64,000 bases of DNA from a virus (IMGVR_UViG_3300002461_000401:1-64000), one strand, 5' to 3'; positions 37,020-57,361 are shown, counted from the stretch's first letter. Made by a program: numbers and translations. Notes: generated by a model from the letters alone, not told the origin.

Positions 37020-37608
37020 GACGATTTACACCCTCAGCGAGTACGGATTGGCTTTAGGTGATGTATCGCGCTGAAGGTGTACTCGGTAAGTCTAAATCGA
37101 ATTGACTTTCCTACCAATCGTCCTCATTCAGGACTGGCCGGCCGATCCTGAGAGACACCCGGTTGCTTCCGTAGGGTGGGGGAAGCATGGAGCGAGAGGG
37201 CTGATCCCTGACTACGTCGCACTACGCGATGGCATCACATAGGTTGATCGCCCTCTCCCTCCTCTTGCCTTCGAATTGGTTGCGACAAGCCCACCCAATT
37301 TTTTTCTCAACTTATCTCGAATATTCCGCTTGCATCCCGATTCTCAAGATGAGAAGTAGGTCGAGTCAGACGGAAGGCCCAGCCACCCAAGCGAGACCCA
37401 CTAGGCATCAGCCCGGTGGATCTTTGGTTTCTACGCAGACTCAGTACGACTTTAGGTCAACAAACTTCAACTCTGACTAGCCACATAGCTTTTCTGGTTT
37501 TAGGGGTGTACCCACTGAAGCGCGCGGCCAATCAAATCCCATCACCCCACCGGGGACTTTCTCTTCTCTCTCTTTTCTAAGAGGAGAATTGATAGGAGGG
37601 GGAGTGTA

Positions 37609-37640
37609 ATCTGAACCAGGGTAAGAACCCTGGTTCAGAT
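37609..37640. promoter_or_regulatory. perfect 14-bp inverted repeat with 4-nt loop in the divergent non-coding hub
   Basis: ATCTGAACCAGGGT (37609-37622) aaga ACCCTGGTTCAGAT (37627-37640). No flanking T-run on either strand. Confidence 0.6.
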
Positions 37641-37931
37641 CTCTAGGTTAGTAAGAAATATACCTTCCTCAAATATACCTGCTTAATAGAGATAACTTTT
37701 GTACTAACTCCTCCGGAGTTTATGGTCACAAAGTTCAAGACTGTTCCTCTAAGATAGATCGCCTTATGAGTGGTGGATTCTATATATTTTTGAGGAAGGT
37801 TCTGTGGACGGTGATAGTGACGTACGGGGGCAGTGTTACACGTTCGCGCTCGTCTCGAACAAACCACCCCCCCGGGGCTTACACGCTTTCGTGTCTCACT
37901 ATGCCCCCACCTCTTCTTTACCCTGCGCTCT

Positions 37932-37949
37932 GGCCTCCGGCCTTCATGG
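37932..37949 (+). promoter_or_regulatory. hairpin motif copy 1 (candidate vRNAP early promoter)
   Basis: GGCC-TCC-GGCC then TTCATGG. Lies 40 nt upstream of ATG 37989. Confidence 0.5.
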
Positions 37950-37988
37950 GGCGATCATGCCCTCATCATCCATAGGGTCTATGCTCCC

Positions 37989-38351
37989 ATGTCCATCACC
38001 TCGCAGGCTGCCCGTTCCACTGGCTCGCTCTTCGGCACCATCTCCTCGGCTGCCACCACGGTTGGCTCGGTCTTCAACGCTGCCACCAAGTCCGTCCAGC
38101 TCCTGGACAACTACGTCTCCAACGCTCTCGAGCACCAGCAGGAGCGCATCGACGCTGACAATGCTCAGTTCTCGATCGGTCTCCAGATCCGTAAGGCTCA
38201 GGAAATGGCTGAGCTCTACGCGGAAGCGCAGGAGTTCCAGGCCAAGTCGCCTGAGCATCACGCCAACTTCCAGAAGTCCTTCGATCTCATCGGCAAGGCC
38301 ATCGAAGAGGGTAAGGCTCGCCGGGCCAAGCTCGCTTCCGCCACCGTCTAG
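37989..38351 (+). CDS. early protein 1 (hypothetical)
   Basis: In-frame ATG of track ORF 37833..38351, chosen because it lies downstream of hairpin copy 1. 120 aa, helical and charged. No clear SD. Confidence 0.5.
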   Translation: MSITSQAARSTGSLFGTISSAATTVGSVFNAATKSVQLLDNYVSNALEHQQERIDADNAQFSIGLQIRKAQEMAELYAEAQEFQAKSPEHHANFQKSFDLIGKAIEEGKARRAKLASATV

Positions 38352-38413
38352 GCTACACGAACACAGGCTCTCTGCTCCTCAGGTCTCACACCTGGGGAGT
38401 AGGGGTTCACTAC

Positions 38414-38467
38414 GAGATGGGCAGATGCAAGATACCTATCTGAACCATGTGAGATGGGCAGCTCAAG
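38414..38467. repeat. direct repeat GAGATGGGCAG(n)CAAG x2, spaced 37 nt, in non-coding DNA
   Basis: gagatgggcagatgcaag at 38414-38431 and gagatgggcagctcaag at 38451-38467. Confidence 0.8.
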
Positions 38468-38730
38468 CCGAGTGAAACGAGGCGTAATGCACTCTAAATT
38501 CTGAGTGTAACTATATAACCCTAAACCTCAGCTTAGTGGGTGCTGAGCTGGTCTAGAGTGTGAACACTGTTCATCTCTATAGGGATAGAGTTAGAGTTAG
38601 TGGGAGTTGCACAGCTATTTCGTAGCTATTGTGTTCATTCATCTTATCCCAATCCCAACTCTCCAAAACCTATTCCCAAATCCCGAATACCTAAACACAC
38701 TCGATAATCTACCTGATTGGTAGGTGTGCA

Positions 38731-38748
38731 GGCCTCCGGCCTTTATGG
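38731..38748 (+). promoter_or_regulatory. hairpin motif copy 2 (candidate vRNAP early promoter)
   Basis: aGGCC-TCC-GGCCt then TTATGG. Lies 114 nt upstream of ATG 38862. Confidence 0.5.
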
Positions 38749-38861
38749 AGTCGAGGTGAAGCCGAGACCCGAAGCAGCGCAGCTGCGAGGATGGATGAGG
38801 AGTTGAAAACCGCTCGAGCATCGAGCGAGTTGGTCCTCGTCTCAATGAAGGAGCTACTTCA

Positions 38862-39104
38862 ATGGCAATGGGAATCACTTACGGCGATACGAACACCTCG
38901 TTCTTCGGCATCGAAGAAAACCTGGTTCCCCATGATGATGTGGATGGGGCCTGGTTACACCCGTTCGAAGACAACCTCCTCGAGACCAAGTTTCAGATCG
39001 TCAAAGAAGTCATCATGTATGACTGCTTCGATGAAGGTAACGATGAGAAATGGGCTGATGACCAGCATCTGGATCTCTGCCGGCAACTGGCTGGAGGTAA
39101 CTGA
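38862..39104 (+). CDS. small acidic early protein (hypothetical)
   Basis: 80 aa. AAGGAG lies 8 nt upstream of the ATG. Preferred over the overlapping 38791..39144 ORF, whose composition (S/T/W/M-rich) is not protein-like. Confidence 0.6.
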   Translation: MAMGITYGDTNTSFFGIEENLVPHDDVDGAWLHPFEDNLLETKFQIVKEVIMYDCFDEGNDEKWADDQHLDLCRQLAGGN

Positions 39105-39146
39105 GCCAACAGCCAATCCCCACAACCTGAACCAAGGAGAATAGCT

Positions 39147-39485
39147 ATGGCCAAGAAGTTCAAGCGTGACTCCAAGAGCGCGAAGGGCAACTCCAAGCCC
39201 AAGGGACCTGTCCTCAGCCGCACCATTGGGCGTCATGGTGCTTTCCAGCATCCGGCCCTCATCAAGCTGGGTGAGGGGATCTGCGCCAACTATGAGACCA
39301 GTCTGAATGAGGCGAAGGAGGATCTGATTCTTCGTCGCCAGCATGAGCACGAGGCCCGCAAAACTGCGCTCTACGCCGCTCTGAAGGCTGCGACTGATGA
39401 GGGTCTGGATGGGCCTGAGCATCTCTCCTGTCCGGCCTTGGCTGCCTGCACCTATGCCATCCTCGAGCAGGGGCTGGCGTCGTGA
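39147..39485 (+). CDS. hypothetical early protein
   Basis: 112 aa with a basic N-terminus, preceded by CTGAACCAAGGAGAA. Confidence 0.6.
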   Translation: MAKKFKRDSKSAKGNSKPKGPVLSRTIGRHGAFQHPALIKLGEGICANYETSLNEAKEDLILRRQHEHEARKTALYAALKAATDEGLDGPEHLSCPALAACTYAILEQGLAS

Positions 39486-43958: not shown

Positions 43959-44263
43959 GCGAGAATACTGGTGTCCGTTCCTTCCTGGATGGTTCAAGTG
44001 CTCACCTGACATCAAAGGATGCGGACCTTATCAGCAGTGGGGTTCGCAGCAACAACACGGGACGTGTCATTTCTCATGAATATGGGTGGTTCATCCATGT
44101 CGCGTTGGATGACACCGAAGAACAGGACGAAGGGTATCGTGATGCAGGCTTCAGCGAGAGCTTCATAGCTCTGCTCGCCTACGCACGAACCCATAACTGC
44201 TGGTGGATCAACTTGGATCAGGACGCTGACGTGATCCCCGGTCTTGCGACCTACAGCTGGTGA
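43955..44263 (+). CDS. hypothetical protein
   Basis: 102 aa. Overlapping start. C-terminal WWINLDQDAD motif. Confidence 0.5.
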   Translation: MSENTGVRSFLDGSSAHLTSKDADLISSGVRSNNTGRVISHEYGWFIHVALDDTEEQDEGYRDAGFSESFIALLAYARTHNCWWINLDQDADVIPGLATYSW

Positions 44264-44291
44264 TCGAGTTCACCGACAAGGAGATCGTACA

Positions 44292-44462
44292 ATGAGTGTT
44301 GTCATCATCACCCTGGGTAATGGTGCTGAAGCAGCCATCACCAACAACGGTTACCTCGTGATTCAAGCTGGGATCACGAGCGTCAACCTCGGCAAAGCCT
44401 CTCGTCAACAGATCGAGAGGATTCAGGAATGTCTCGAGCGCCTGAAGGTACACTGCGAATGA
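44292..44462 (+). CDS. hypothetical small protein
   Basis: 56 aa. AAGGAG 7 nt upstream of the ATG. Confidence 0.5.
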   Translation: MSVVIITLGNGAEAAITNNGYLVIQAGITSVNLGKASRQQIERIQECLERLKVHCE

Positions 44463-44938
44463 GCCTGCACCACTCTCCCCCGAGACTCTTCCTCGACTTG
44501 GATGGAGTCCTCGCTGACTTCGATGCCCATCACAAGGCCACCTTCGGCTTCAGCCCGTGCAAGATAGCAGGCGACGCTGACTGGCGTGGGATCCAGAACA
44601 CCAAGGACTTCTACTTAAATCTCCCACCTATGTCCGACATGCGCGAGCTGTGGGATGCGGTGAAGCACCTGGAGCCGACCATCATCACCGGCGTGCCATT
44701 CTCGGTGCCTGAGGCACCCGACAACAAGAAAGCCTGGGTGCGGAAGCACCTTGGCTCGCACGTCGAGGTCATCTGTTGCAGGTCCAGCCAGAAGTTCGTC
44801 CATGGATCCAAGGGAGACATCCTGATCGACGACTGGCCGCGGTACGAGAAGGCCTGGAAGAAGATGGGTGGGATCTGGATCACCCACATCAACGCCCAGC
44901 ACTCGATCGCTCGGCTGAAAGATCTTCAGGTGATCTGA
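44459..44938 (+). CDS. 5'(3')-deoxyribonucleotidase (NT5C family, HAD superfamily)
   Basis: 159 aa. FLDLDGVLADFD (DxDxV motif I), ITGVP, KKAWVRKHLG, ILIDDWP. Confidence 0.75.
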   Translation: MSLHHSPPRLFLDLDGVLADFDAHHKATFGFSPCKIAGDADWRGIQNTKDFYLNLPPMSDMRELWDAVKHLEPTIITGVPFSVPEAPDNKKAWVRKHLGSHVEVICCRSSQKFVHGSKGDILIDDWPRYEKAWKKMGGIWITHINAQHSIARLKDLQVI

Positions 44939-44955
44939 ATAAAGGAGCAAAGCAG

Positions 44956-45189
44956 GTGAACTACAGAGAAGCCAAAAAGCTTTGGAAGTCCAAGACTTTC
45001 GAGACCTATACCAGCAAGATGGCCGGTACCACCCATCGTATCGAATCCAGAAACGAAGGAACAGATTTCTGCGTCTCTACCTATGTCGGAGGCTCAAAGG
45101 TCTCCGAACACTGGCCTGAATACAGAGGTGGCATTGGCTATCGAAACGATGGTTCGACCTACGGCGAAGCCTTTCTCGCTATCACCTGA
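44956..45189 (+). CDS. hypothetical small protein
   Basis: 77 aa. GTG start with AAAGGAG 8 nt upstream. Confidence 0.45.
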   Translation: MNYREAKKLWKSKTFETYTSKMAGTTHRIESRNEGTDFCVSTYVGGSKVSEHWPEYRGGIGYRNDGSTYGEAFLAIT

Positions 45190-45218
45190 TTCGCAAACTC
45201 TGAACCAAGGAGAAAACA

Positions 45219-46418
45219 GTGCAGACCTTCACCGGCCTCGAATATCTCAAGATCGACATTGCCTCGAGCTTTGGGCTCGACAAGAAGACTTGGGCTGAGC
45301 GTCTCGCCTGGTTCGAGGTGAACCAAGGAAGCCTCCATGCCCAGATCAAGCAGGCCAAGGACCCGGCGCTCTACTTCGCCGGCGTCATGGCTTACGAGGC
45401 CACCATGCGTGGGGAGCCTTCGGGCTACCCCATCTCGCTGGATGCAACGTCGTCAGGGTTGCAGATCCTGGCGGCACTGACCTGCGACCGCGGCGGTGCC
45501 AGCCTTTGTAATGTGGTGAACACCGGACAGCGTGAGAATGCCTACGAGCTGGTGTGTCAGCTCATGGGTCAGCGCGTTGGGCCTGAGATGGCCAAGAACA
45601 TCAATCCTGAAGACGCAAAACAAGCGATTATGACTGCGTTGTATAGCTCAGAGAAGGTGCCCAAGGAGGTCTTCGGCGATCTCTATGACACCTTCGTCGA
45701 GACCATGGAGGACGAGGCACCTGGCGTCTGGACGCTCAACAAGGAGTTCCTGAAGCTTTGGAACCCCAATGCGCTGAGCAACGACTGGGTGTTGCCGGAC
45801 AACTTCCACGTCCATGTGAAGGTCATGAACACGGTGCCCATGAACGTGACGTTCCTGGACGAGCCCTACACCGCATTCCGCAAGGTCAATGAGCCCATGG
45901 AGGAGGGCCGATCGCTCGGAGCCAATGTGACCCACAGCATCGACGGCATGATCGTCCGTGAGATGCTGCGGCGCTGCAAGTTCGATGTCGTGAACATCGG
46001 TTATCTCCGCAAGCTGTTGGAGGGAGAGTGGGTGTGCAAAGACAACACTGAACATCACCTAAAGATGGTGAAGATCCTCTGGGGTCACTATGAGCGCACA
46101 GGCTTCCTGTCCACTCGCATCCTGGAACACCTGGACAGCTACACCCTGCATGTCGTGGATATCGACACCATTCGGTGGACGATGAATCGCCTACCGGCGA
46201 AGCCCTTCAACATTCTGACCACGCACGATTGCTTCAAGGTCCTACCAAATTACGGCAACGATCTGCGCCGGCAGTACAACAACCTGCTGGAGGAGATCGC
46301 ACGCAGCAACCTGCTGGGTGACATCCTCACGCAGCTGACTGGTGATCAGTGGGACTCCTTCAAGCTGGATCCCACCTTGGCCGACGACATCGTCAACGCG
46401 GAGTACGCACTGTCATGA
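45219..46418 (+). CDS. phage RNA polymerase II large subunit (RNAP2, N4 gp16-like)
   Basis: 399 aa. ISLDATSSGLQILAAL (motif A), KQAIMTALYSS (motif B), LTTHDCFKV (motif C). Confidence 0.9.
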   Translation: MQTFTGLEYLKIDIASSFGLDKKTWAERLAWFEVNQGSLHAQIKQAKDPALYFAGVMAYEATMRGEPSGYPISLDATSSGLQILAALTCDRGGASLCNVVNTGQRENAYELVCQLMGQRVGPEMAKNINPEDAKQAIMTALYSSEKVPKEVFGDLYDTFVETMEDEAPGVWTLNKEFLKLWNPNALSNDWVLPDNFHVHVKVMNTVPMNVTFLDEPYTAFRKVNEPMEEGRSLGANVTHSIDGMIVREMLRRCKFDVVNIGYLRKLLEGEWVCKDNTEHHLKMVKILWGHYERTGFLSTRILEHLDSYTLHVVDIDTIRWTMNRLPAKPFNILTTHDCFKVLPNYGNDLRRQYNNLLEEIARSNLLGDILTQLTGDQWDSFKLDPTLADDIVNAEYALS

Positions 46419-46672
46419 AGATCAAGGATCTGGTGGTAAGCCTAACCCCTGAGCAGAGGAAAGCTATTCTCTGGTTCTGGGACAGCACGATGACCATTCC
46501 AGCCAAGCACGTCTGGATGGCCTGGTCGCCCCGAGATGATCCCAGCGCTCCGTCGCCTGAGGTGATGTATTCACTGCTGAGGATACAACCGACCCTGATC
46601 ATCGTGGACAGTGGCCAAGTTCTTCACAGGCTCTCAGCCTACGGTAAACGAGTGAGACGTCTTCTCATGTGA
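46415..46672 (+). CDS. hypothetical protein
   Basis: 85 aa. ATGA overlap with the RNAP2 stop. Confidence 0.5.
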   Translation: MKIKDLVVSLTPEQRKAILWFWDSTMTIPAKHVWMAWSPRDDPSAPSPEVMYSLLRIQPTLIIVDSGQVLHRLSAYGKRVRRLLM

Positions 46673-46677
46673 CCAAT

Positions 46678-46722
46678 GGACCAGAACATCAGCGAAAGCT
46701 GGTGCTCTGGTCCTTATTTTTT
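46678..46722 (+). terminator. rho-independent terminator
   Basis: GGACCAGAaCAtCAGC-gaaa-GCTGgTGcTCTGGTCC followed by TTATTTTTTCTG. Confidence 0.75.
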
Positions 46723-46787
46723 CTGTTAGTGTTTTTGTAAAGTAATCAGTCTTTTTGTGGTTTTTTTATTCTTTAGGACACAACATT

Positions 46788-47204
46788 ATGAACACGCACA
46801 AGACGGATGGACCAATGAGCAAGGTTGACCGCGCCGCGCTGCGTGCGTTGGCAGAAGCTGCAACGCCGGGGGGGTGGGCACATGAGGCAGATATTCGCGA
46901 AGATCGCTGCGGTAAAAGCGAAGTGGTCGGCTGGAATATCAACTCAGGCACCCAAGAAATTATCGGGTGCGAGGGGATCCTAGGAGACGGGAAACCCGAC
47001 GCCGCCTACATCGCAGCCGCGCACCCCGCCGCCGTGCTTGAGCTGCTGGACGAAGTGGCGCGGTTGCGAGAGGCGCTGCACCTTGCTGAGCAATTCATCG
47101 TCAACGGGTGCGACCTGGGCTTCATCCGCATGCCGGATAGGGGCGACCCGGCGCTTCACACGTTGCCAGCCATCCGCGCCGCTCTCGGGAGGCCCGGCGC
47201 ATGA
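46788..47204 (+). CDS. ead/Ea22-like family protein
   Basis: 138 aa. VDRAALRALAEAATPGGW ... DAAYIAAAHPAAVLELLDEVARLREAL matches the Ea22-like pattern as I recall it. ~68-70% GC versus 50-55% in the flanks (hand counts of 60-mers). Confidence 0.65.
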   Translation: MNTHKTDGPMSKVDRAALRALAEAATPGGWAHEADIREDRCGKSEVVGWNINSGTQEIIGCEGILGDGKPDAAYIAAAHPAAVLELLDEVARLREALHLAEQFIVNGCDLGFIRMPDRGDPALHTLPAIRAALGRPGA

Positions 47205-47614
47205 CTGGCCCGCACGACACGCCCGAGGCGGTGGAGCGACACGCCGAACATCTGGCGTCCTGCTATTTGCCGGGAACCGCCGCCATGCTGCGCCGCCTGC
47301 ACCAGCGAGCGATTGATGCGGAGCGGGAGCTTATTGAGCAGGCGCGGGCAGGAAACGCTCTGTTCCGGCGCTTCCAAGCTGAACGCGACGAAGCCCGCGC
47401 AGCCCTCGCCACCGCGCGCGCTGACGCGCTGCGGGAGGCTGTGGACATCGCTGACGCGGTATCGCGCCGGGCCAGCCACAGCCGCATGCGCGCCGTTGAA
47501 GATTGCCACACCAGCGAAATCCACCACCAAGAAGGCCGGTGGCACGCAGCAAACGATATTGGCGAAGACATCGCCATCCTCGCTGCGAAACCCACCACCA
47601 CGGGAGAGACGTGA
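47201..47614 (+). CDS. hypothetical cassette protein B (ends ...AKPTTTGET)
   Basis: 137 aa, overlapping start. The C-terminal tail is shared with protein D. Confidence 0.55.
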   Translation: MTGPHDTPEAVERHAEHLASCYLPGTAAMLRRLHQRAIDAERELIEQARAGNALFRRFQAERDEARAALATARADALREAVDIADAVSRRASHSRMRAVEDCHTSEIHHQEGRWHAANDIGEDIAILAAKPTTTGET

Positions 47615-47922
47615 TGCACGATCCGAAATTGATTGAGGCTATGGCGCGGGCGATTGGTGCGCGTCTTGCGCTGCGCGGGTCTGTGAACGACGCGGCGACG
47701 GATGCTTTGCGCGATCTCTGCGCCGCGCATCCCGGCGTTGCGGCGGTGCTGCGCGGCGAGGCTGTGGCGCTCCCCAAAACACCGACAGACGCTCAATGGG
47801 ACCACATCGCTGCATCGCTTGATGCACACCCGGCCTCGCTTTTGATGGAAAGGCAGCGGCGTTGGTGGCCTGATTTTATCGCTGCCAGTCCCTACGCGCA
47901 GGAGACGCCCGATGCCCGCTGA
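47614..47922 (+). CDS. hypothetical cassette protein C
   Basis: 102 aa. GTGATG stop/start overlap. MHDPKLIEAMARAI... Confidence 0.55.
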   Translation: MHDPKLIEAMARAIGARLALRGSVNDAATDALRDLCAAHPGVAAVLRGEAVALPKTPTDAQWDHIAASLDAHPASLLMERQRRWWPDFIAASPYAQETPDAR

Positions 47923-48301
47923 CACCGCGCCCGCGTGGCCTAACCCCGCGCGCCCCGGCGTGCCGACCCTGCCGGAAGTAGATGCGTTCCATTGGCTGCT
48001 ACGGCGCAACGGCGCATGGCCAGAAGCTTGGTTGTGGCAGTCTGATGCCGACGGATGCGGCACCGAATACAGCGGTGCGTGGGCTGAAAGTGATGGCGAC
48101 GGCCAGCCTGATACTATGGCACGCTGGTATTCCTACCTCGGCCCCTGCCACACGCCGCAGGAGGTCGCCACGATCCGCGCCGAAGCCTTCGCGGCGGGGT
48201 GGATGGCGGCACGGGAAGCAAACGGCAGGATGGACATGGCGAAAGAAGTCGCCGCTGCCATCCGCGCCCTCATCCACCCCACCACCACAGGAGAGACGTG
48301 A
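47912..48301 (+). CDS. hypothetical cassette protein D (ends ...HPTTTGET)
   Basis: 129 aa, Trp-rich. Start lies inside the 3' end of gene C. Confidence 0.55.
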   Translation: MPADTAPAWPNPARPGVPTLPEVDAFHWLLRRNGAWPEAWLWQSDADGCGTEYSGAWAESDGDGQPDTMARWYSYLGPCHTPQEVATIRAEAFAAGWMAAREANGRMDMAKEVAAAIRALIHPTTTGET

Positions 48302-48342
48302 TGCACGATCCGACGATGCCCACTGACACCGCGCCCGCGTGA
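48301..48342 (+). pseudogene. fused remnant: 5' end of a C-like gene joined to the 5' end of a D-like gene, closed by TGA
   Basis: ATGCACGATCCGA (same as 47614-47626) then CGATGCCCaCTGACACCGCGCCCGCGTGa (compare 47909-47937, where the last codon is TGG). Confidence 0.6.
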
Positions 48343-48384
48343 CCCGATCCCGCGCACATCGCTAAGGACCGCGCGGATTGGCTG

Positions 48385-48690
48385 GTGGATGCAATCGCAA
48401 CCGCCACACAAGACCGCCGATACCTACGCGGCGAACCGGATGCCGATAACGTCGCCATTGACGCCATTCTAATGAATGGCGAAAAGGCAATCAGGGTTGC
48501 TCTCAACCGCTTTGCCGCCGAAGTCACCGCGCGCGAGGCGGCGACCTGGGCGGCTGGCGCGGCGGTGATGCGCGATATCTTTGCAACCATGTGTGCTGAT
48601 CTTGAGTGGCTGAACCTTGAGGTTGCCATCCGCGCCCTCCCCCTCCCGCCGATGCCTGGCACAACGCAGGGAGGCAACGCAGATGAGTGA
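48385..48690 (+). CDS. hypothetical cassette protein E (possibly the 5'-truncated part of a longer gene starting at 48316)
   Basis: 101 aa from a GTG start. The frame is continuous with ATG 48316 except for the TGA at 48340-48342. Confidence 0.45.
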   Translation: MDAIATATQDRRYLRGEPDADNVAIDAILMNGEKAIRVALNRFAAEVTAREAATWAAGAAVMRDIFATMCADLEWLNLEVAIRALPLPPMPGTTQGGNADE

Positions 48691-48904
48691 TGACGCGATC
48701 AAGCGAGCGCTGGAGGTGGCAACTCGCACGGCTTGCGGTAATTGCGATTGCTCGCCGGTGCAGCCTGGATGCTTTGCTCAGGTTGCCGAGGAAGTCGCCG
48801 CGTTTCTGGACGCCATGAACCCTCACAACAGGCGAGCCGGGTTCAACCTCGCTCGCGATGTAGAAGAAGCCGCCGCGATCCGTCTCGCGGGCGGTGCGGC
48901 ATGA
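48683..48904 (+). CDS. hypothetical cassette protein F (Cys-rich)
   Basis: 73 aa. ATG overlaps the stop of E. Contains CGNCDCSPVQPGC. Confidence 0.5.
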   Translation: MSDDAIKRALEVATRTACGNCDCSPVQPGCFAQVAEEVAAFLDAMNPHNRRAGFNLARDVEEAAAIRLAGGAA

Positions 48905-48978
48905 GTTACAAGCAGATTATTTTCGTAGGAGCCTTATTATGGCTCACCACTCTGACTTGGGTGCATCTCACTAGATAA
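48901..48978 (+). CDS. possible 25-aa hydrophobic peptide
   Basis: MSYKQIIFVGALLWLTTLTWVHLTR. ATGA overlap with F. AT-richer than the rest of the cassette. Confidence 0.3.
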   Translation: MSYKQIIFVGALLWLTTLTWVHLTR

Positions 48979-49041
48979 CTCAACTCTGTCAGCTCTTTGT
49001 TTGGTTTTGCCCCTCTCAAAGCAAAACAAGACAGACATCCA

Positions 49042-49077
49042 GGCCCGTTCCCCCGAAAGGGGGGCGGGCCTTTTCTT
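49042..49077 (+). terminator. rho-independent terminator
   Basis: GGCCCGttCCCCC-gaaa-GGGGGgCGGGCC followed by TTTTCTT. Confidence 0.8.
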
Positions 49078-49101
49078 GACCTCGAACCAAGGAATAGCAG
49101 C

Positions 49102-49587
49102 GTGACTCAAAACACTGATGTGTTTGCTGAACAGCTTCGTCGCACTCTCATTTGGGAAGGGCTCAAGCTGATTCAGCAAAAGTATCCAGAGATCAAAGTC
49201 GTCGGCGCAACTGTGGATTTCAGTGGGTCTGGTGATGACGGATCAATGGACAGTGAGCCGTGTTTGGTGATTGATCAACATCAGGGTGTTTGGCACGAAG
49301 AGTCCTATAAGGCTTTCCGGGCCAATTCTCTGCTGACAAAATCCATCATGGATGAGGTAGAACTCATCTACGACAAGCACGGCGGTGATTGGCCAGATTG
49401 GGTCAACAACGAAGGCGGCATCGGCAGTATCCAGTTCATTCTAGATGGGGAAGGCTCTGACGGTAACACCTATAAAGAGGGTGTTTGCGTCACTGTTTGG
49501 ACCAACGAAGTCATCCAGCATCAAAACAATGTCTTCAGTGAAGGTGCCCTGGATAAGGAGCCTGAGCCAGAAGAGATGCCGCAATGA
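49102..49587 (+). CDS. hypothetical protein
   Basis: 161 aa. GTG start preceded by CGAACCAAGGAA. Acidic C-terminus. Confidence 0.5.
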   Translation: MTQNTDVFAEQLRRTLIWEGLKLIQQKYPEIKVVGATVDFSGSGDDGSMDSEPCLVIDQHQGVWHEESYKAFRANSLLTKSIMDEVELIYDKHGGDWPDWVNNEGGIGSIQFILDGEGSDGNTYKEGVCVTVWTNEVIQHQNNVFSEGALDKEPEPEEMPQ

Positions 49588-49961
49588 GTCACCCTCTACT
49601 GCACGCTCAATCGTCCGCAATGATCCATGGTGGAAGGCCAGAGGATTACCTGGCTCTCCACGAGTGGTTTGATGCCTCCAAAGAGCACATGGCCAATTTT
49701 CGGCACCGTGCTCTGAGGCATCACAGCCAAGGCATTTTCGAAGCTGAGCGTGTGTTCGGAGTGTCTATCCGGAACAGCGAAGGCAAGGACGTGCCTACCC
49801 GTGTTCTAGGTGAGCAGCACGTTCGTGAAGACTGCGGCCGCATTCCCACCCTGGCTGACTGGCTCAGCAAGATTCCAGCTGAGCCCTGGATGTTCCGCGA
49901 TGTGCAGAACCTTCGAGCCACACTCTCCCATACCTCTTCGAACCAAGGAACACACGCATGA
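49584..49961 (+). CDS. hypothetical His-rich protein
   Basis: 125 aa with overlapping start and stop. Confidence 0.5.
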   Translation: MSHPLLHAQSSAMIHGGRPEDYLALHEWFDASKEHMANFRHRALRHHSQGIFEAERVFGVSIRNSEGKDVPTRVLGEQHVREDCGRIPTLADWLSKIPAEPWMFRDVQNLRATLSHTSSNQGTHA

Positions 49962-51028
49962 GCGCCGCGCTCAACCAAGAGAACGTATCGACCGTCAACA
50001 TCTATCGCACTTCGCCGCGGCGAATGCGGAGCTTTGTCCTCGACTGTCTCTATGAGGGTCTCATGCCCTGCGTGCTTGGTTCGCCTGGCATCGGCAAGTC
50101 GCAGATCATGTCCAACGTCTGTGACGAGCTGAACCTCAAGCTCATCGACCATCGTGTCGCCGGCTCGGATCCCTCCGACTTCAATGGCCTACCGGACATC
50201 AAGAACGGCCGGGCCCGCTTCGCTCCCTTCGAGGACGTGTTCCCGATCGAGGACACCGAGATCCCCGAGGGCAAGGACGGCTGGATGATCTTCTTCGACG
50301 AGATCACGTCGGCCGGCAAAGCTGTTCAGGCGGCGCTCTACAAGAGCATCCTGGATCGCATGACCGGCCAGCATCGCTTCCACGAGAACGTGGTGATGGC
50401 TGCTGCCGGCAACCTGGCCACAGATCGCGCCATCACGTCGCCTATCTCCACGGCACTCCAGTCCCGCATGATCTGGTTCGAGCTGGAGATTGCCGGCCAC
50501 GAGCAGGAGTGGATTGAAGATGTAGCTCTCAAGCACGGCTACGACAGCCGCATCGTGGGCTACCTGAGCCGCTACCCCAGCAAGCTGATGGACTTCCGCC
50601 CCGATCACGACGAGCGGACCTTCTGCTGCCCGCGGACCTGGGAGTTCATGAATCGCCTGGTGAAGGATAAGCCCGTCATCGAGGAGAAGATGCCCCTCTA
50701 CGCCGGCACCATCACCTCAGGTGTGGCCGTGGACTTCGTCCAGTTCTGCCAGGTGTACGCGAACCTGATCAGTCTGCGTGAGATCATCAGCGATCCCGCT
50801 GGCTGCCGCATTCCGCACGATCTCTCCGAACGCTGGGCCACCATCACCCACGTCATGGAGAAGATGACCGAGGAGACGTTCGAGAAGGTCACGACCTACG
50901 CGAACCGCTTCCCGCTGGACTTCAAGGTCCTCTTCTTCCGTTCGATCCCCATCAAGCAACCCAAGCTCATGGCTCACCCGGCGTACCGCAAGGCGCTGGT
51001 CGAGCTGTCGCGCTACCTGCACTCCTGA
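49958..51028 (+). CDS. AAA+ ATPase (MoxR/AAA_5-like)
   Basis: 356 aa. Walker A LGSPGIGKSQ, Walker B WMIFFDEITSA. Confidence 0.8.
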   Translation: MSAALNQENVSTVNIYRTSPRRMRSFVLDCLYEGLMPCVLGSPGIGKSQIMSNVCDELNLKLIDHRVAGSDPSDFNGLPDIKNGRARFAPFEDVFPIEDTEIPEGKDGWMIFFDEITSAGKAVQAALYKSILDRMTGQHRFHENVVMAAAGNLATDRAITSPISTALQSRMIWFELEIAGHEQEWIEDVALKHGYDSRIVGYLSRYPSKLMDFRPDHDERTFCCPRTWEFMNRLVKDKPVIEEKMPLYAGTITSGVAVDFVQFCQVYANLISLREIISDPAGCRIPHDLSERWATITHVMEKMTEETFEKVTTYANRFPLDFKVLFFRSIPIKQPKLMAHPAYRKALVELSRYLHS

Positions 51029-51039
51029 GGAACACCAAC

Positions 51040-51420
51040 ATGAAGCGTTTTTCCGCCCTGGCTCTCCTGGGCCTGATGACTCTCGCCGCCTGTGACGATC
51101 CCGCCAAAGTGGCCCGACAGAACCTGATTCGTGCGGCCGACAACTTCGAGGTCAACCGGCGTATCACCTTCATCAACGGCATGACGAACCAGTCCATGCT
51201 GGTGATCGAGGGGCTCTGCTCCCTGGAAGTCCGCCCCACCGTGCTCGAGGTCATCTGCAAGACCGGCCGCGACACGTTCAAGCGGCATCATCTCGGCCTG
51301 GCCACGACCGTCTCCTACATGAGCGAGCAGATCGACCCCGCGCCGGCGAGCACCTACCGCTATCGGGTGACCTTCAACCCGACGGTGATCATTCCCGACA
51401 TCCGCCTCAACGCCCAGTGA
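51040..51420 (+). CDS. predicted lipoprotein
   Basis: 126 aa. MKRFSALALLGLMTLAAC has a signal peptide and lipobox LAAC. Confidence 0.6.
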   Translation: MKRFSALALLGLMTLAACDDPAKVARQNLIRAADNFEVNRRITFINGMTNQSMLVIEGLCSLEVRPTVLEVICKTGRDTFKRHHLGLATTVSYMSEQIDPAPASTYRYRVTFNPTVIIPDIRLNAQ

Positions 51421-51435
51421 ACGGGAGAGCATCTG

Positions 51436-51645
51436 ATGGACGGATCTCAGGTTCAGCGATCTGAGCCCCACGTCATCAACATCAGCATCAAGAAGGGTCC
51501 GATCGACCGGACCTTCCTGATCGGGATGGGGGCGATCAAGTACCACGTCTATGCCAGCTCCCTGGCTCAGGCGAAGCAGAAGGCCGTCGAGCACTTCAAG
51601 CCCAAGAAGAAGGATCGAGCTCAGATCTGGGCCCGAGAAGTCTGA
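51436..51645 (+). CDS. hypothetical small basic protein
   Basis: 69 aa. Its stop overlaps the next start. Confidence 0.45.
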   Translation: MDGSQVQRSEPHVINISIKKGPIDRTFLIGMGAIKYHVYASSLAQAKQKAVEHFKPKKKDRAQIWAREV

Positions 51646-52796
51646 TGGCCACGCTCGAGGAGATAAAAGCCAAGGCACCGGTCGAGATCGACCCCTACGT
51701 CCTGCAGCGAGAGCTCGACAAGACGAAGAGCGAGGTCTTCATCGGCAAGAACGCTGCGTTCATGGGCTCCCTGATGTGCTCCATGGACTTCATCTGGGAC
51801 GAGAACATTCTCACCGCGGCGACAGACGGTACCTGCGTCTGGTGGAATCCCCAGTTCTTCCTGGGTCTCAACGTCCCCACCAGGCGCTTCGTGCTCGTCC
51901 ATGAGCTCTGGCACCCGGCTCGGCTTCACATCCTGCGGTGCGGCAACCGGGATCCAAGGCTCTGGAACATCGCCTGCGACCATCGGATCAACAACGATCT
52001 GAAGGCCGACGGCTACAAGTTCGACGACATCCAGGAATGGATCTGCCTCGATCCGAAATACGCCGGCTGGCTCGAAGAGGACATCTACGATGACCTCGTG
52101 AAGAACCCGCCTCCTCCGCCTCCACCTGGCTGGTGTGATGACATCAAGCCCGGCAACAAGGCGTCACAGACCAAAGCGGTGAACAACACCGTGCGAGCTG
52201 TGAACCAAGCGAAAGCTGGAGGCGGTGCCGGCAACATCCCGGGAGACGTCGAGGAGATCCTCTCGAAGTTCCTGGCTCCAGTTGTTCCTTGGGAACAGGT
52301 GCTCCACAGGTTCATGAACGAGCTTGCGGACGAGGACTACACCTGGAGCCGGCCCAATCGCCGGTTCCGGACGGCCTACCTGCCCTCGCGGTATCTGGAG
52401 CTCGGTCGCCTCGAACACCTGGTCTATTTCGAGGACGTCTCTGGATCCATCACCCAAGCAGACGCCATTCGCTTCAACTCTGAGGTGAAATACGTCTGGG
52501 ATATGTACCAGCCCACGAAGATGACGCTGGCGCAGTTCGACACTCGGATCACTCAGGTGATCGAGTACGAAGAGGGCGATGAGATTAACGAGATCAAGAT
52601 CGTAGGCCGGGGAGGTACCTCCCTGGAATGCGTCCGTGACTTCATCATCGAACACCGGCCGACAGCTGCCATCATCTTCTCGGACCTCGAGTGCGATCCG
52701 ATGGAAAAGCTGCCGTTCGACATCCCCATCATCTGGGTAGCGATCCGGAATCGGAAGGCCATCGTGCCCTTCGGTGAGATCACCCACATCCGCTGA
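51645..52796 (+). CDS. metallopeptidase-like (HExxH) + vWA-like domain protein
   Basis: 383 aa. VLVHELWHPARLH (HExxH). MIDAS-type YFEDVSGSI (DxSxS). Partner of the AAA+ ATPase. Confidence 0.75.
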   Translation: MATLEEIKAKAPVEIDPYVLQRELDKTKSEVFIGKNAAFMGSLMCSMDFIWDENILTAATDGTCVWWNPQFFLGLNVPTRRFVLVHELWHPARLHILRCGNRDPRLWNIACDHRINNDLKADGYKFDDIQEWICLDPKYAGWLEEDIYDDLVKNPPPPPPPGWCDDIKPGNKASQTKAVNNTVRAVNQAKAGGGAGNIPGDVEEILSKFLAPVVPWEQVLHRFMNELADEDYTWSRPNRRFRTAYLPSRYLELGRLEHLVYFEDVSGSITQADAIRFNSEVKYVWDMYQPTKMTLAQFDTRITQVIEYEEGDEINEIKIVGRGGTSLECVRDFIIEHRPTAAIIFSDLECDPMEKLPFDIPIIWVAIRNRKAIVPFGEITHIR

Positions 52797-56859: not shown

Positions 56860-56868
56860 ACGAGAAGT

Positions 56869-56930
56869 GCCGGTTCGATTCCGGCTCGCTGGTCGAGGCT
56901 TGGTAGGAAGGGAGGCGGTTCGAATCCGTA
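56869..56930 (+). other. two tRNA T-arm-like hairpins without a foldable cloverleaf
   Basis: GCCGG-TTCGATT-CCGGC (56869-56885) and GGCGG-TTCGAAT-CCGTA (56914-56930). I could not pair acceptor, D or anticodon arms of normal length. Confidence 0.35.
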
Positions 56931-56963
56931 GAGGGCTCTTGGGGAGCCAAATGACCCGGCTTC

Positions 56964-57007
56964 GGGGGCGGCCGTTAGCGCATCAGCGGAATCTGATGCA
57001 GGCCCCC
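56964..57007 (+). other. nested GC-rich RNA/DNA structure
   Basis: Outer stem GGGGGC/GCCCCC encloses a 7-bp stem GCATCAG-cggaat-CTGATGC. Confidence 0.5.
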
Positions 57008-57361
57008 GATCCTTTCTGGACAGACACACAGACAATCAGAGTTTGGATTCGTTCCGCTGAAGGTCAGGGCCGTAAGGGTGTGTCTGGGTTAAAGTCGAGA
57101 TCATAGACCCTCGGCTGTCCAGTCTAGTTCCTGATCGCCACCGGCTGTCAGTGCGGGCAGAGTGAGAACGGTCTCATTCGTGGTCCGCAATCTTCAACAC
57201 TACGCGGGTTCAACATCAACAAACTTTCGTTCAGTGACGGTTAAGCTCAAGTTTGTGGGATTCTGTTACCACTCAAGACCGTTAAAAGTTGGCTAACCTT
57301 GAAAATTATTCTTAAATTGAAGGAAAACGGGCTTGTTCAGCCGCTTACCTAAGTTGTATTA

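What the first reader, a model, noticed from the sequence alone, without database searches (positions are those of the whole stretch)
46678..49077. GC-rich accessory cassette, bracketed by two intrinsic terminators, inserted between the RNAP2 operon and the replication genes
A clean terminator (46678-46722) is followed by a 65-nt AT-rich stretch. Then come six or seven tightly overlapping small genes (46788-48978), and then a second strong terminator (49042-49077).

Hand counts of 60-mers give ~70% GC inside the cassette versus ~50-55% in the flanking backbone. Codon choice also shifts towards GCG/CGC/CCG. The first product looks like an ead/Ea22-like protein, a family typical of temperate lambdoid prophages rather than N4-like lytic phages. 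Several products end in a related A-I-R-A-L-type C-terminal motif (AIRAALGRPGA, AAIRALIHPTTTGET, VAIRALPLPP, AAAIRLAGG).

This is a moron-like, self-contained transcription unit, probably acquired from a high-GC host or prophage. Its function is unknown; host takeover or counter-defence are candidates.
Basis: partly seen in the sequence, partly recalled or inferred. Interest (0 to 1): 0.66.

Follow-up and report, generated by a model that had tools for sequence, protein, structure and literature searches.

The report
Temperate-phage gene block in N4-like phage
A lytic N4-like phage carries a 2.1-kb block of six small genes copied from the early accessory region of GC-rich temperate phages; the block sits in a terminator-flanked variable slot that related phages fill with other genes, which is a clear but fairly ordinary case of phage mosaicism.

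Summary
Both terminators fold strongly. Six translationally coupled genes plus a 25-codon ORF lie between them, and g1 is an Ead/Ea22-family protein. The block is 65.0% GC, not 70%. The window is 59.9% GC and the local flanks are 53-55%.

The clearest signal is the pattern by codon position and codon usage:
- Codon-position GC is .71/.54/.69 in the block and .59/.39/.81 in the backbone.
- Alanine is 20% in the block and 8% in the backbone.
- Codon-usage divergence from the backbone is 0.084, above all 48 backbone control blocks (maximum 0.066).
- Divergence from 65%-GC temperate-phage contigs is only 0.02-0.03.

Those contigs carry a collinear array (Ead, g2-, g3-, g4/g5- and g6-like genes). 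Nucleotide identity to it is patchy, 77-97%, and mostly spans gene junctions.

The "moron" reading is only partly right. T1, T2 and a leader motif (CTTTTTGTGG) are backbone features. They are conserved in three relatives (RNAP2 63-82% identical) whose slots hold different cargo.

The A-I-R-A-L tails belong to boundary modules that recur in the temperate arrays. These modules contain the next gene's ribosome-binding site and likely mediate cassette shuffling.

The function of the proteins is unknown: no hits in PDB, PADLOC or NCBIfam.

The parts
46678..46722 (+). T1: intrinsic terminator at the end of the early (gp1, gp2, RNAP2) region. It is a backbone feature.
   Evidence: Folds at -27.1 kcal/mol, z = -4.8. 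A 16-pair hairpin is conserved in four related phages, with 4 compensatory pairs.
46723..46787 (+). AT-rich leader (24% GC) with the invariant motif TCTTTTTGTGGTT at 46750-46762 and a conserved AGGACACAACA-YY-ATG ribosome-binding and start region. Candidate promoter and 5' UTR of the slot; a backbone feature.
   Evidence: The motif is invariant in the alignment of four phages. It occurs once per related locus, always after T1, and is essentially unique in the window. GC.
46802..48905 (+). Extent of the foreign block, defined by homology to temperate-phage arrays. The left junction lies within 46791-46801. The right junction lies between 48905 and about 48975.
   Evidence: blastn patches to L031 and L032 begin at window 46802 and end at 48905. 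Backbone homology to L013 runs up to the ATG at 46788-46790. Backbone homology to L017 resumes at about 48975.
46788..47204 (+). g1: 138-aa Ead/Ea22-like protein. The first 9 codons use the slot's resident start; the donor-type start is M10 at 46815.
   Evidence: Pfam PF13935 E = 1.6e-8, profile positions 1-78 of 139. PHROG hits are all of unknown function. Alignment to homologues starts at M10.
47201..47614 (+). g2: 137-aa Ala/Arg-rich protein, helical or coiled-coil by composition (not modelled).
   Evidence: 64% identical over 90 aa to the L031 117-aa gene. Its start region is 93% nt-identical to L031. No family hit.
47614..47922 (+). g3: 102-aa protein.
   Evidence: 46% identical to the L032 118-aa gene, with the same MHDPKLIE start and AQETPDAR end.
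47912..48301 (+). g4: 129-aa member of a widespread uncharacterised phage family. It has a conserved Trp-rich N-terminal domain and a variable helical tail.
   Evidence: 233 representative homologues at E < 1e-3. Alignment. AF2 model pLDDT 80. No PDB fold match; only uncharacterised viral proteins in BFVD.
48303..48342 (+). Vestigial mini-ORF MHDPTMPTDTAPA*: a g3-type start fused to a g4-type start, the scar of a deleted g3-like gene.
   Evidence: Direct repeats D3 (47591-47626 and 48278-48313, 97%) and D1 (47910-47951 and 48314-48355, 88%).
48343..48690 (+). g5: in frame with the mini-ORF through a TGA (48340-48342) where g4 and homologues have the Trp codon TGG. It is either a pseudogene or is expressed as 101 aa from GTG 48385.
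   Evidence: Read directly from the sequence. The TGA is also present in a contig from another sample, L035. The C-terminal tail is 81% identical to the tail of the L032 161-aa g4-like gene.
48683..48904 (+). g6: 73-aa Cys-containing protein.
   Evidence: Its last 38 nt are 97% identical to the end of the L032 60-aa gene. Same MSDD start and AAAIR-AGGAA end.
48901..48978 (+). g7: 25-codon hydrophobic ORF, 41% GC, not donor-like. Origin uncertain and possibly not a gene.
   Evidence: No family hit. Relatives carry small hydrophobic ORFs in the same slot.
49041..49078 (+). T2: intrinsic terminator closing the slot. It is a backbone feature.
   Evidence: 13-pair stem with 10 GC pairs plus a T-run. 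Folds at -28 kcal/mol. Nearly identical in sequence in L014 and L017.

Best explanation
The two terminators delimit a variable accessory-gene slot at the early/middle boundary of a new N4-like (Schitoviridae) phage from activated-carbon metagenomes. The slot frame belongs to the backbone. It consists of T1, an AT-rich leader with the invariant motif CTTTTTGTGG, a conserved ribosome-binding and start region, and T2. Related phages keep this frame but load it with different genes.

In this phage the cargo is a 2.1-kb block (about 46802-48905) of six translationally coupled genes. It was captured by recombination from the early accessory array of roughly 65%-GC temperate phages. That array resembles the lambda exo-xis/ea region. 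The block is fused in frame to the slot's own start codon.

The array evolves by exchange at short conserved boundary modules. Each module consists of the last 8-15 codons of one gene, which contain the next gene's Shine-Dalgarno sequence and an overlapping stop/start, plus the first 5-12 codons of the next gene. This explains the recurring A-I-R-A-L/...G-E-T tails.

Inferred, not shown: the block is transcribed as one mRNA from the leader and terminated at T2 at the start of the middle phase. Its small proteins (an Ea22-like protein, a probable coiled-coil protein and a g4-family beta-domain protein) are taken to act as dispensable modulators of host or resident-prophage physiology, not as replication functions.
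For: Backbone identity:
- RNAP2 (PF00940), N4 gp1 and N4 gp2 Pfam families lie upstream. AAA, DUF2201, dCTP deaminase, ligase and ThyX genes lie downstream.

The slot frame is conserved:
- T1, the motif and (where the contig reaches it) T2 are present in L013, L014 and L017, whose RNAP2 is 82, 65 and 63% identical.
- T1 shows 4 compensatory pairs across the four phages.

The cargo differs between relatives:
- L014 has an 85-aa gene plus a small hydrophobic ORF.
- L017 has 38-, 73- and 95-aa genes, the last a Cro/C1-type HTH protein.
- L013 has a 113-aa gene, a 71-aa membrane protein, a 70.8%-GC Ead gene only 39% identical to g1, and a g4-like gene.

Donor evidence:
- The cassette shows collinear patchy identity of 77-97% nt to L031 and to L032/L033. 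L031 is 38 kb, 64.8% GC, with a divergent cI/cro-like HTH pair, a lysozyme and a holin. L032/L033 are 65.8% GC.
- A g4 homologue lies in a prophage on a 178-kb, 71%-GC bacterial contig.
- Codon-position GC and codon-usage divergence match the donors (0.020-0.032) and not the backbone (0.084, above all 48 controls).

Boundary modules:
- The same start and end peptides flank different interiors in L031, L032 and L037.
- Internal junction duplicates and a deletion scar lie in the cassette.
- 7 of 10 SNPs between two samples fall in the 45-nt g3/g4 junction.
- A 52%-GC phage (L037) carries a 66%-GC g4 module with the same QETPDAR*/MPADTAP junction.

Not an assembly artefact:
- The left junction appears in contigs from two projects. 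The right junction appears in three other samples.
Against: - There are no expression data. The promoter role of the leader motif is a guess, and the motif occurs only once per genome. It is therefore not a general middle-promoter consensus.
- The function of every product is unknown.
- g5 carries an in-frame stop and a gene scar lies beside it, so part of the block may be decaying rather than selected.
- The donor contigs are metagenomic with no host assignment. That they share a host with the N4-like phage is inferred only.
- Only four related phages could be compared, and L013 is cut before T2.
Confidence: 0.75

Rival explanations
1. Strict moron: one insertion event brought the genes together with their own promoter and both terminators, between two previously adjacent backbone genes.
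For: The unit is bracketed by two strong terminators, preceded by an AT-rich stretch, and differs in composition from its flanks.
Against: T1, the leader motif and T2 are conserved in relatives that lack the cassette. Donor homology starts only at 46802 and stops at 48905, inside the terminators. The leader and terminators have backbone-like or lower GC.
Confidence: 0.07
2. The genes are native, vertically inherited genes of this N4-like lineage. Their composition looks odd only because the proteins are Ala/Arg-rich.
For: The closest relative, L013, also has an Ead gene and a g4-like gene in the same slot. Some core genes are also GC-rich, for example gp2 at 67.7%.
Against: The g1 and L013 Ead proteins are 39% identical, against 82% for RNAP2. 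L014 and L017 lack the genes. Several segments are 83-97% nt-identical to temperate-phage contigs. GC3 is 0.69 against 0.81, and codon usage matches the donors, including donor genes that are not homologous to the cassette.
Confidence: 0.06
3. Metagenome assembly chimera: reads from a co-occurring temperate phage were wrongly joined into the N4-like contig.
For: Many contigs from other samples end inside the cassette, at window 46885, 47099, 47204, 47304, 47601, 47620 and 48265. Several of these points coincide with the internal repeats (repeats).
Against: The left junction (RNAP2, up85, T1, g1, g2) is present in assemblies from two independent projects (SRR281545xx and PRJNA301005). The right junction (g6, g7, T2, downstream gene) is present in L035, L036 and L012, from three further samples. 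The relative L013 independently carries such genes in the slot. The contig breaks are explained by 36-42-nt internal repeats and by sequence shared with other phages.
Confidence: 0.02
4. The block is functional anti-defence or anti-prophage cargo. The N4-like phage keeps temperate-phage early genes in order to neutralise immunity or defence encoded by resident prophages of the same host.
For: This is circumstantial only. The genes sit in a swap-in slot expressed right after the early genes. The cargo in relatives is also of temperate-phage type (a Cro/C1-type HTH in L017). The g4 module has spread into unrelated phages of different GC, as expected for a broadly useful accessory gene.
Against: No similarity to any known defence-related family (PADLOC), NCBIfam family or solved structure. 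One gene is interrupted (g5). Lambda Ea22, the only studied relative, is described as pro-lysogenic rather than anti-defence (PMC7093339, PMC10834534).
Confidence: 0.15

Closest known systems
Lambda exo-xis ('ea') region and Ea22/Ead proteins of lambdoid temperate phages (Pfam PF13935)
   Same: g1 passes the Pfam Ead_Ea22 threshold. In the donor contigs it lies in an array of small, tightly packed early genes. In L031 that array is in the same early region as a divergent cI/cro-like HTH pair, about 4 kb downstream. The genes are non-essential-looking and of unknown biochemistry. Lambda Ea22 is an early, tetrameric, coiled-coil protein (PMC10834534).
   Different: Only the N-terminal 78 of 139 profile positions match. 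The lambda Ea22 C-terminal domain, which has an NMR structure, is absent: there was no PDB sequence hit at E <= 1. The carrier here is an N4-like phage; no lysogeny genes were seen in the parts of the window examined. The pro-lysogenic role reported for lambda and Stx phages (PMC7093339) therefore cannot simply be transferred.
Morons of lambdoid and HK97-like phages (extra genes with their own promoter and terminator; concept from my own knowledge of the Hendrix/Juhala papers)
   Same: Extra DNA of deviant composition lies between conserved backbone genes and is flanked by terminators. It is absent from some relatives.
   Different: The terminators and leader are conserved backbone elements, not part of the insert. 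The site is a reusable slot with different cargo in each relative. The insert is a six-gene array rather than one gene.
Mosaic gene modules with conserved boundary ('linker') sequences in lambdoid phages (from my own knowledge)
   Same: Short conserved sequences at gene boundaries flank unrelated interiors. Identity to other phages is collinear but patchy and mostly spans gene junctions. There is also a deletion scar and a SNP cluster at junctions.
   Different: Here the boundary modules include the C-terminal codons, the Shine-Dalgarno sequence and the overlapping stop/start of translationally coupled genes. The same modules appear in phages of 52, 60 and 65% GC.
Variable ORFan regions of N4-like phages (for example the small-ORF cluster gp87-gp115 of LUZ7 mentioned in PMC9163698)
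   Same: Clusters of small genes of unknown function in an otherwise conserved N4-like genome, transcribed with the early or middle genes.
   Different: This slot lies directly after the RNAP2 genes, is delimited by two conserved terminators, and its cargo can be traced to temperate phages.

Membership tests
Moron (strict sense) | The insert carries its own promoter and terminator, acquired together with the gene(s) | tested here: not met
   T1, the leader motif and T2 are conserved in relatives without the cassette. Donor homology is confined to 46802-48905.
Moron (strict sense) | Present in one genome and absent from the same site in relatives, whose flanking genes are then adjacent | tested here: inconclusive
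   The cassette is absent from L014 and L017, but their slots hold other genes. No empty site was found.
Moron (strict sense) | Nucleotide composition differs from the surrounding genome | tested here: met
   65.0% against 59.9% GC. Codon-usage divergence 0.084 against a null maximum of 0.066. GC1/2/3 of .71/.54/.69 against .59/.39/.81.
Ead/Ea22 family (PF13935) | Profile HMM match above the Pfam gathering threshold | tested here: met
   g1: 35.6 bits against a 27-bit cut-off, E = 1.6e-8, residues 11-92 on profile positions 1-78 of 139.
Ead/Ea22 family (PF13935) | C-terminal domain of lambda Ea22 (solved by NMR) | tested here: not met
   No PDB chain matches g1 at E <= 1. Profile positions 79-139 are unmatched.
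Ead/Ea22 family (PF13935) | Pro-lysogenic effect on phage development | not testable with these tools
   Known only from lambda and Stx-phage genetics (PMC7093339).
N4-like phages (Schitoviridae) backbone | Heterodimeric RNAPII genes, with gp1 and gp2 upstream and middle replication genes downstream | tested here: met
   PF00940 on the 399-aa protein. Its best GenBank relatives are the RNAP2 of Rhizobium, Sinorhizobium and Pseudomonas N4-like phages at 53-55%. PF26891 (N4 gp1) and PF26984 (N4 gp2) lie upstream.
Intrinsic (factor-independent) terminators | GC-rich hairpin directly followed by a U-tract | tested here: met
   T1 covaries across four phages. T2 is conserved. Termination activity itself was not tested.
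Mosaic arrays with conserved boundary sequences | Homologous short boundary sequences flank non-homologous or highly diverged interiors in different genomes | tested here: met
   The same starts (MTxPHDTPEAVE, MHDPKLIE, MPADTAPxW, MSDD) and ends (ALGRPxA*, PTTGET*, AQETPDAR*, QGGNADE*, AGGAA*) occur in the window, L031, L032 and L037.
Known anti-phage defence or candidate defence proteins (PADLOC) | Profile match to a PADLOC model | tested here: not met
   Only E = 0.04-0.06 noise for g6.

The most novel reading that the evidence does not exclude
The boundary modules would be more than relics of recombination. A module here is the A-I-R-A-L tail, then a tail that encodes the Shine-Dalgarno sequence, then the overlapping stop/start and a fixed N-terminal peptide. 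Together with terminator-insulated slots, they would form a dedicated cassette-exchange system. Phages of very different lifestyle and GC (N4-like lytic at 60%, temperate at 65%, another phage at 52%) could then trade ready-to-translate small effector genes. Alternatively, the shared A-I-R-A-L tail could be a common functional tag that docks unrelated effectors onto one host target.
Probability: 0.12. Interest if true: 0.6.

Novelty: new member of a known kind. Interest (0 to 1): 0.33.

Why it matters
It documents, to nucleotide resolution, an N4-like phage taking up a multi-gene early accessory array from temperate phages, at a defined and reusable slot right after its RNA polymerase genes. 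That gives a natural landing site for cargo when engineering N4-like phages. It also provides a tractable set of small proteins (an Ea22-like protein and the g4 family, with at least 233 representative clusters) whose function could be tested by deletion. Finally, it is an example of how conserved, translation-coupling gene boundaries may drive cassette shuffling across phages of different base composition. It does not reveal a new kind of system.

Tried and rejected
- Megablast of 46000-50000 against 50,697 GenBank phages found no match. tblastn of g1 and of concatenated g2-g6 against phages found no meaningful match. tblastn of g4 against plasmids found none.
- The search for related loci with RNAP2 in IMG/VR found no relative. 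An exact scan of IMG/VR for the 22-nt g2/g3 junction found nothing.
- The search for homologous proteins with a concatenated g2-g6 query returned nothing. This was probably candidate saturation by Ala-rich words, so it is not evidence of absence; g4 alone later gave hits.
- The genome-contig scan with a g1/L013 Ead alignment gave only distant Ead homologues (28-42% identity) in diverse bacteria. It identified no donor, and g2-g6 had no neighbours there.
- Cluster look-ups gave no organism names for the donors.
- Structure: the g4 model is good (pLDDT 80) but has no PDB match. The g1 single-sequence model is poor (pLDDT 54) and was not searched.
- NCBIfam, PADLOC and Rfam gave nothing. The 266-aa antisense ORF 47263-48063 has no family hit and is taken to be a shadow ORF of high-GC DNA.
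- The sigma-70 promoter scan found none in 44000-52000. The papers read gave no usable N4 middle-promoter consensus.
- My first codon-usage null had a bug in how the control blocks were built. Only the corrected null is used.
Full report
**What is in the sequence**

The window is 59.9% GC. It encodes an N4-like phage. A 399-aa protein (45219-46418) carries PF00940. Its best GenBank relatives are the RNAP2 large subunits of Rhizobium, Sinorhizobium, Pseudomonas and Stenotrophomonas N4-like phages, at only 53-55% identity. N4 gp1 and gp2 families lie upstream. AAA, DUF2201, dCTP-deaminase-like, ligase and ThyX genes lie downstream. Exact-protein look-ups place the phage in activated-carbon metagenomes (PRJNA301005, a 75.9-kb contig) and in a second set of runs, SRR281545xx.

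- T1 (46678-46713 plus TTATTTTTT) folds at -27.1 kcal/mol, z = -4.8.
- T2 (49041-49071 plus TTTTCTT) folds at -28 kcal/mol and is the strongest terminator-like site in 44-52 kb.

Between them lie the following features:
- a 24%-GC leader;
- g1 46788-47204, g2 47201-47614, g3 47614-47922, g4 47912-48301;
- a 13-codon mini-ORF, 48303-48342;
- g5, 48343 (or GTG 48385) to 48690;
- g6 48683-48904, and a 25-codon hydrophobic ORF g7, 48901-48978.

Most genes overlap by ATGA-type junctions that are preceded by GGAG-type ribosome-binding sites inside the upstream gene's last codons.

**Composition**

The block is 65.0% GC, not about 70%. It is the highest of all equal-length windows, but the next best is 63.9%. 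Only the immediate flanks are 53-55%.

The informative signal is by codon position. The cassette has GC1/2/3 of .706/.541/.694. Backbone middle genes have .585/.385/.807. The extra GC therefore comes from Ala/Arg-rich proteins (Ala 20.2% against 7.7%), and GC3 is actually lower.

Codon-usage Jensen-Shannon divergence from the backbone is 0.084. This exceeds all 48 backbone control blocks of 2.1 kb (mean 0.028, sd 0.010, maximum 0.066).

**Identity of the genes**

g1 passes the Pfam Ead_Ea22 threshold (E = 1.6e-8), but only over the N-terminal 78 of 139 profile positions. It has no PDB relative.

g2, g3, g5 and g6 match no Pfam, PHROG, NCBIfam or PADLOC family.

g4 belongs to an uncharacterised family. 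It has 233 representative clusters at E < 1e-3. The family has a conserved Trp-rich N-terminal domain (GWPxxxRPGVPxNPExDxxHWL...DADGCGTEYSGAW...DGDGQPE.MARW.YLGPC.TPxEV) and a variable Ala-rich tail. An AlphaFold model (pLDDT 80) shows a small beta domain followed by one long helix. It has no PDB match. In the viral structure library it matches only two uncharacterised proteins.

**Where the genes come from**

Contexts of g4 homologues:
- L031: a 38-kb contig of 64.8% GC with a divergent cI/cro-like HTH pair, a helicase, a methylase, a lysozyme and a holin.
- L032 and L033: contigs of 65.8% GC with the array Ead_Ea22 (130 aa), 119, 163, 118, g4-like (161) and 60 aa.
- L030: a prophage next to housekeeping genes on a 178-kb, 71%-GC bacterial contig.

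blastn of the cassette against these contigs gives collinear, patchy identity.

| Window segment | Location in cassette | Identity | Contig |
|---|---|---|---|
| 47197-47328 | g1/g2 junction and g2 start | 93% | L031 |
| 47595-47656 | g2/g3 junction | 93.5% | L032 |
| 47881-48156 | g3 end and g4 domain | 83% | L032 |
| 48624-48693 | g5/g6 junction | 87% | L032 |
| 48868-48905 | g6 end | 97% | L032 |

Codon-position GC in the donor arrays is .68/.54/.73 and .68/.50/.76. Codon-usage divergence from the cassette is 0.020-0.032, including against donor genes that are not homologous to the cassette. Both match the cassette rather than the N4-like backbone. No GenBank phage or PLSDB plasmid carries detectable homologues.

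**The slot is a backbone feature**

The closest relatives by RNAP2 are L013 (82%), L014 (65%) and L017 (63%).

All three have a hairpin terminator just after RNAP2. It aligns with T1 and keeps its 16 pairs through four compensatory changes. It is followed by the invariant motif AG(C/T)CTTTTTGTGG, which occurs exactly once per locus. L014 and L017 also have T2, nearly identical in sequence, just before the AAA-ATPase operon. L013 is cut before that point.

The cargo differs between relatives.
- L014 holds an 85-aa gene and a small hydrophobic ORF.
- L017 holds 38-, 73- and 95-aa genes, the last a Cro/C1-type HTH protein.
- L013 holds a 113-aa gene, a 71-aa membrane protein, a 70.8%-GC Ead gene only 39% identical to g1, and a g4-like gene.

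Backbone homology with L013 runs through AGGACACAACAYYATG. Donor homology starts at 46802, 13 nt before the donor-type start codon M10. The Ead gene is thus fused in frame to the slot's own start. On the right, donor homology stops at the g6 stop codon, and backbone homology to L017 resumes at about 48975.

**Boundary modules and ongoing shuffling**

The same short starts and ends flank different interiors in the window, L031, L032 and L037.
- Starts: MTxPHDTPEAVE, MHDPKLIE, MPADTAPxW, MSDD.
- Ends: ...ALGRPxA*, ...PTTGET*, ...AQETPDAR*, ...QGGNADE*, ...AAAIRxAGGAA*.

The ends encode the next gene's ribosome-binding site and the overlapping stop/start.

- It occurs in 4 of 6 cassette proteins and in 0 of 50 backbone proteins.
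- The 12-mer GCCATCCGCGCC occurs three times in the window, each time near the 3' end of a cassette gene (g1, g4, g5).

Several observations point to recombination at the junctions.
- The g2/g3 junction (36 nt, 97%) and the g3/g4 junction (42 nt, 88%) recur back to back after g4. This leaves the mini-ORF MHDPT-MPTDTAPA*, the scar of a deleted g3-like gene.
- g5 continues in the same frame after a TGA where g4 and its homologues have TGG. The TGA is also present in another sample.
- Between two samples, 7 of 10 SNPs fall in the 45-nt g3/g4 junction.
- A 52%-GC phage contig (L037) carries a 66%-GC g4 module, 89% nt-identical, preceded by the same QETPDAR*/MPADTAP junction at the end of a low-GC gene.

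**Artefact check**

Contigs from other samples often end inside the cassette, at 47601, 47620 and 48265 (the internal repeats) and at 46885-47304. This is best explained by repeats and by sequence shared with co-occurring phages. The left junction is seen in two independent projects and the right junction in three further samples.

**Function**

Nothing here identifies a biochemical activity. The only studied relative, lambda Ea22, is an early, tetrameric, coiled-coil protein. It is reported to favour lysogeny and to act through an unknown host partner (PMC7093339, PMC10834534). g1 lacks its C-terminal domain.

My working model is that the block is transcribed from the leader at the onset of the middle phase and terminated at T2. 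It would encode dispensable modulators of host or resident-prophage physiology. This part is inference. The promoter role of the motif is unproven: the papers read say only that N4 middle promoters are AT-rich and start at T (PMC4496689, PMC9163698).

**Verdict**

This is a clear, well-documented case of horizontal capture of a temperate-phage accessory array into a conserved variable slot of a new N4-like phage. It is a new member of a known kind of feature (accessory or plastic region, mosaic modules), not a new mechanism.

Noticed in passing
window 48340-48342: An in-frame TGA interrupts g5 exactly where g4 and its homologues have the Trp codon TGG (MPxDTAPAW). The same TGA is present in a contig from another sample (L035). 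g5 is therefore either a pseudogene or is restarted at GTG 48385.
   Followed up: partly
window 48303-48342: A 13-codon mini-ORF is made of a g3-type start fused to a g4-type start. It is the scar of a deleted gene between two duplicated junction sequences.
   Followed up: yes
window 46750-46762; L013 4481-4490; L014 9330-9339; L017 9300-9309: The motif (A)G(C/T)CTTTTTGTGG(T/G)T is invariant. It occurs once per genome, always 35-60 nt after the post-RNAP2 terminator, in four phages whose RNAP2 is only 63-82% identical. It may be a promoter or another regulatory site; its function is unknown.
   Followed up: partly
L017 (ENA ERZ25074234 ctg13169_6x_l, 296,681 bp, labelled Roseococcus sp.): A related N4-like phage region lies on a 296.7-kb contig attributed to a Roseococcus sp. 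assembly. The length is about four times 74 kb, so it may be a concatemer or a binning artefact. It is nevertheless the only host hint for this phage clade.
   Followed up: no
L037 6417-6836: A 52%-GC phage contig (with LexA-like and GP88 genes, and a ThyX interrupted by an intein and an HNH domain) carries a 66%-GC g4-family gene, 89% nt-identical to the window's g4. It has the same upstream junction, so this module moves between unrelated phages.
   Followed up: partly
window 46415-46672 and 49102-49961: The genes just outside the slot (an 85-aa gene before T1; 161- and 125-aa genes after T2, the latter DUF6915) are low in GC (49-56%). tblastn finds no homologue at the corresponding positions in relatives L013, L014 and L017. 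The plastic zone therefore extends beyond the two terminators.
   Followed up: partly
window 47902-47946: Seven of the ten differences between this window and a contig from another sample (L035) cluster in 45 nt at the g3/g4 junction. This looks like a gene-conversion tract.
   Followed up: yes
window 56860-57361: A 502-nt stretch without an ORF contains tRNA T-arm-like strings (GGTTCGATTCCGG, GGTTCGAATCCG). ARAGORN and Rfam find no tRNA or other RNA family there.
   Followed up: partly
window 37020-39150: The start of the early region is much lower in GC (50-54%) and has long non-coding stretches with short GC-rich hairpins. These are candidates for virion-RNAP early promoters and were not analysed.
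   Followed up: no
L001 (Rhizobium phage RHEph22) 7273-7285 and 9172-9189: Even this distant N4-like phage has terminator-like hairpins directly after RNAP2 and again before the next large gene. They enclose four small genes, so a terminator-flanked slot at this position may be widespread in this branch.
   Followed up: partly
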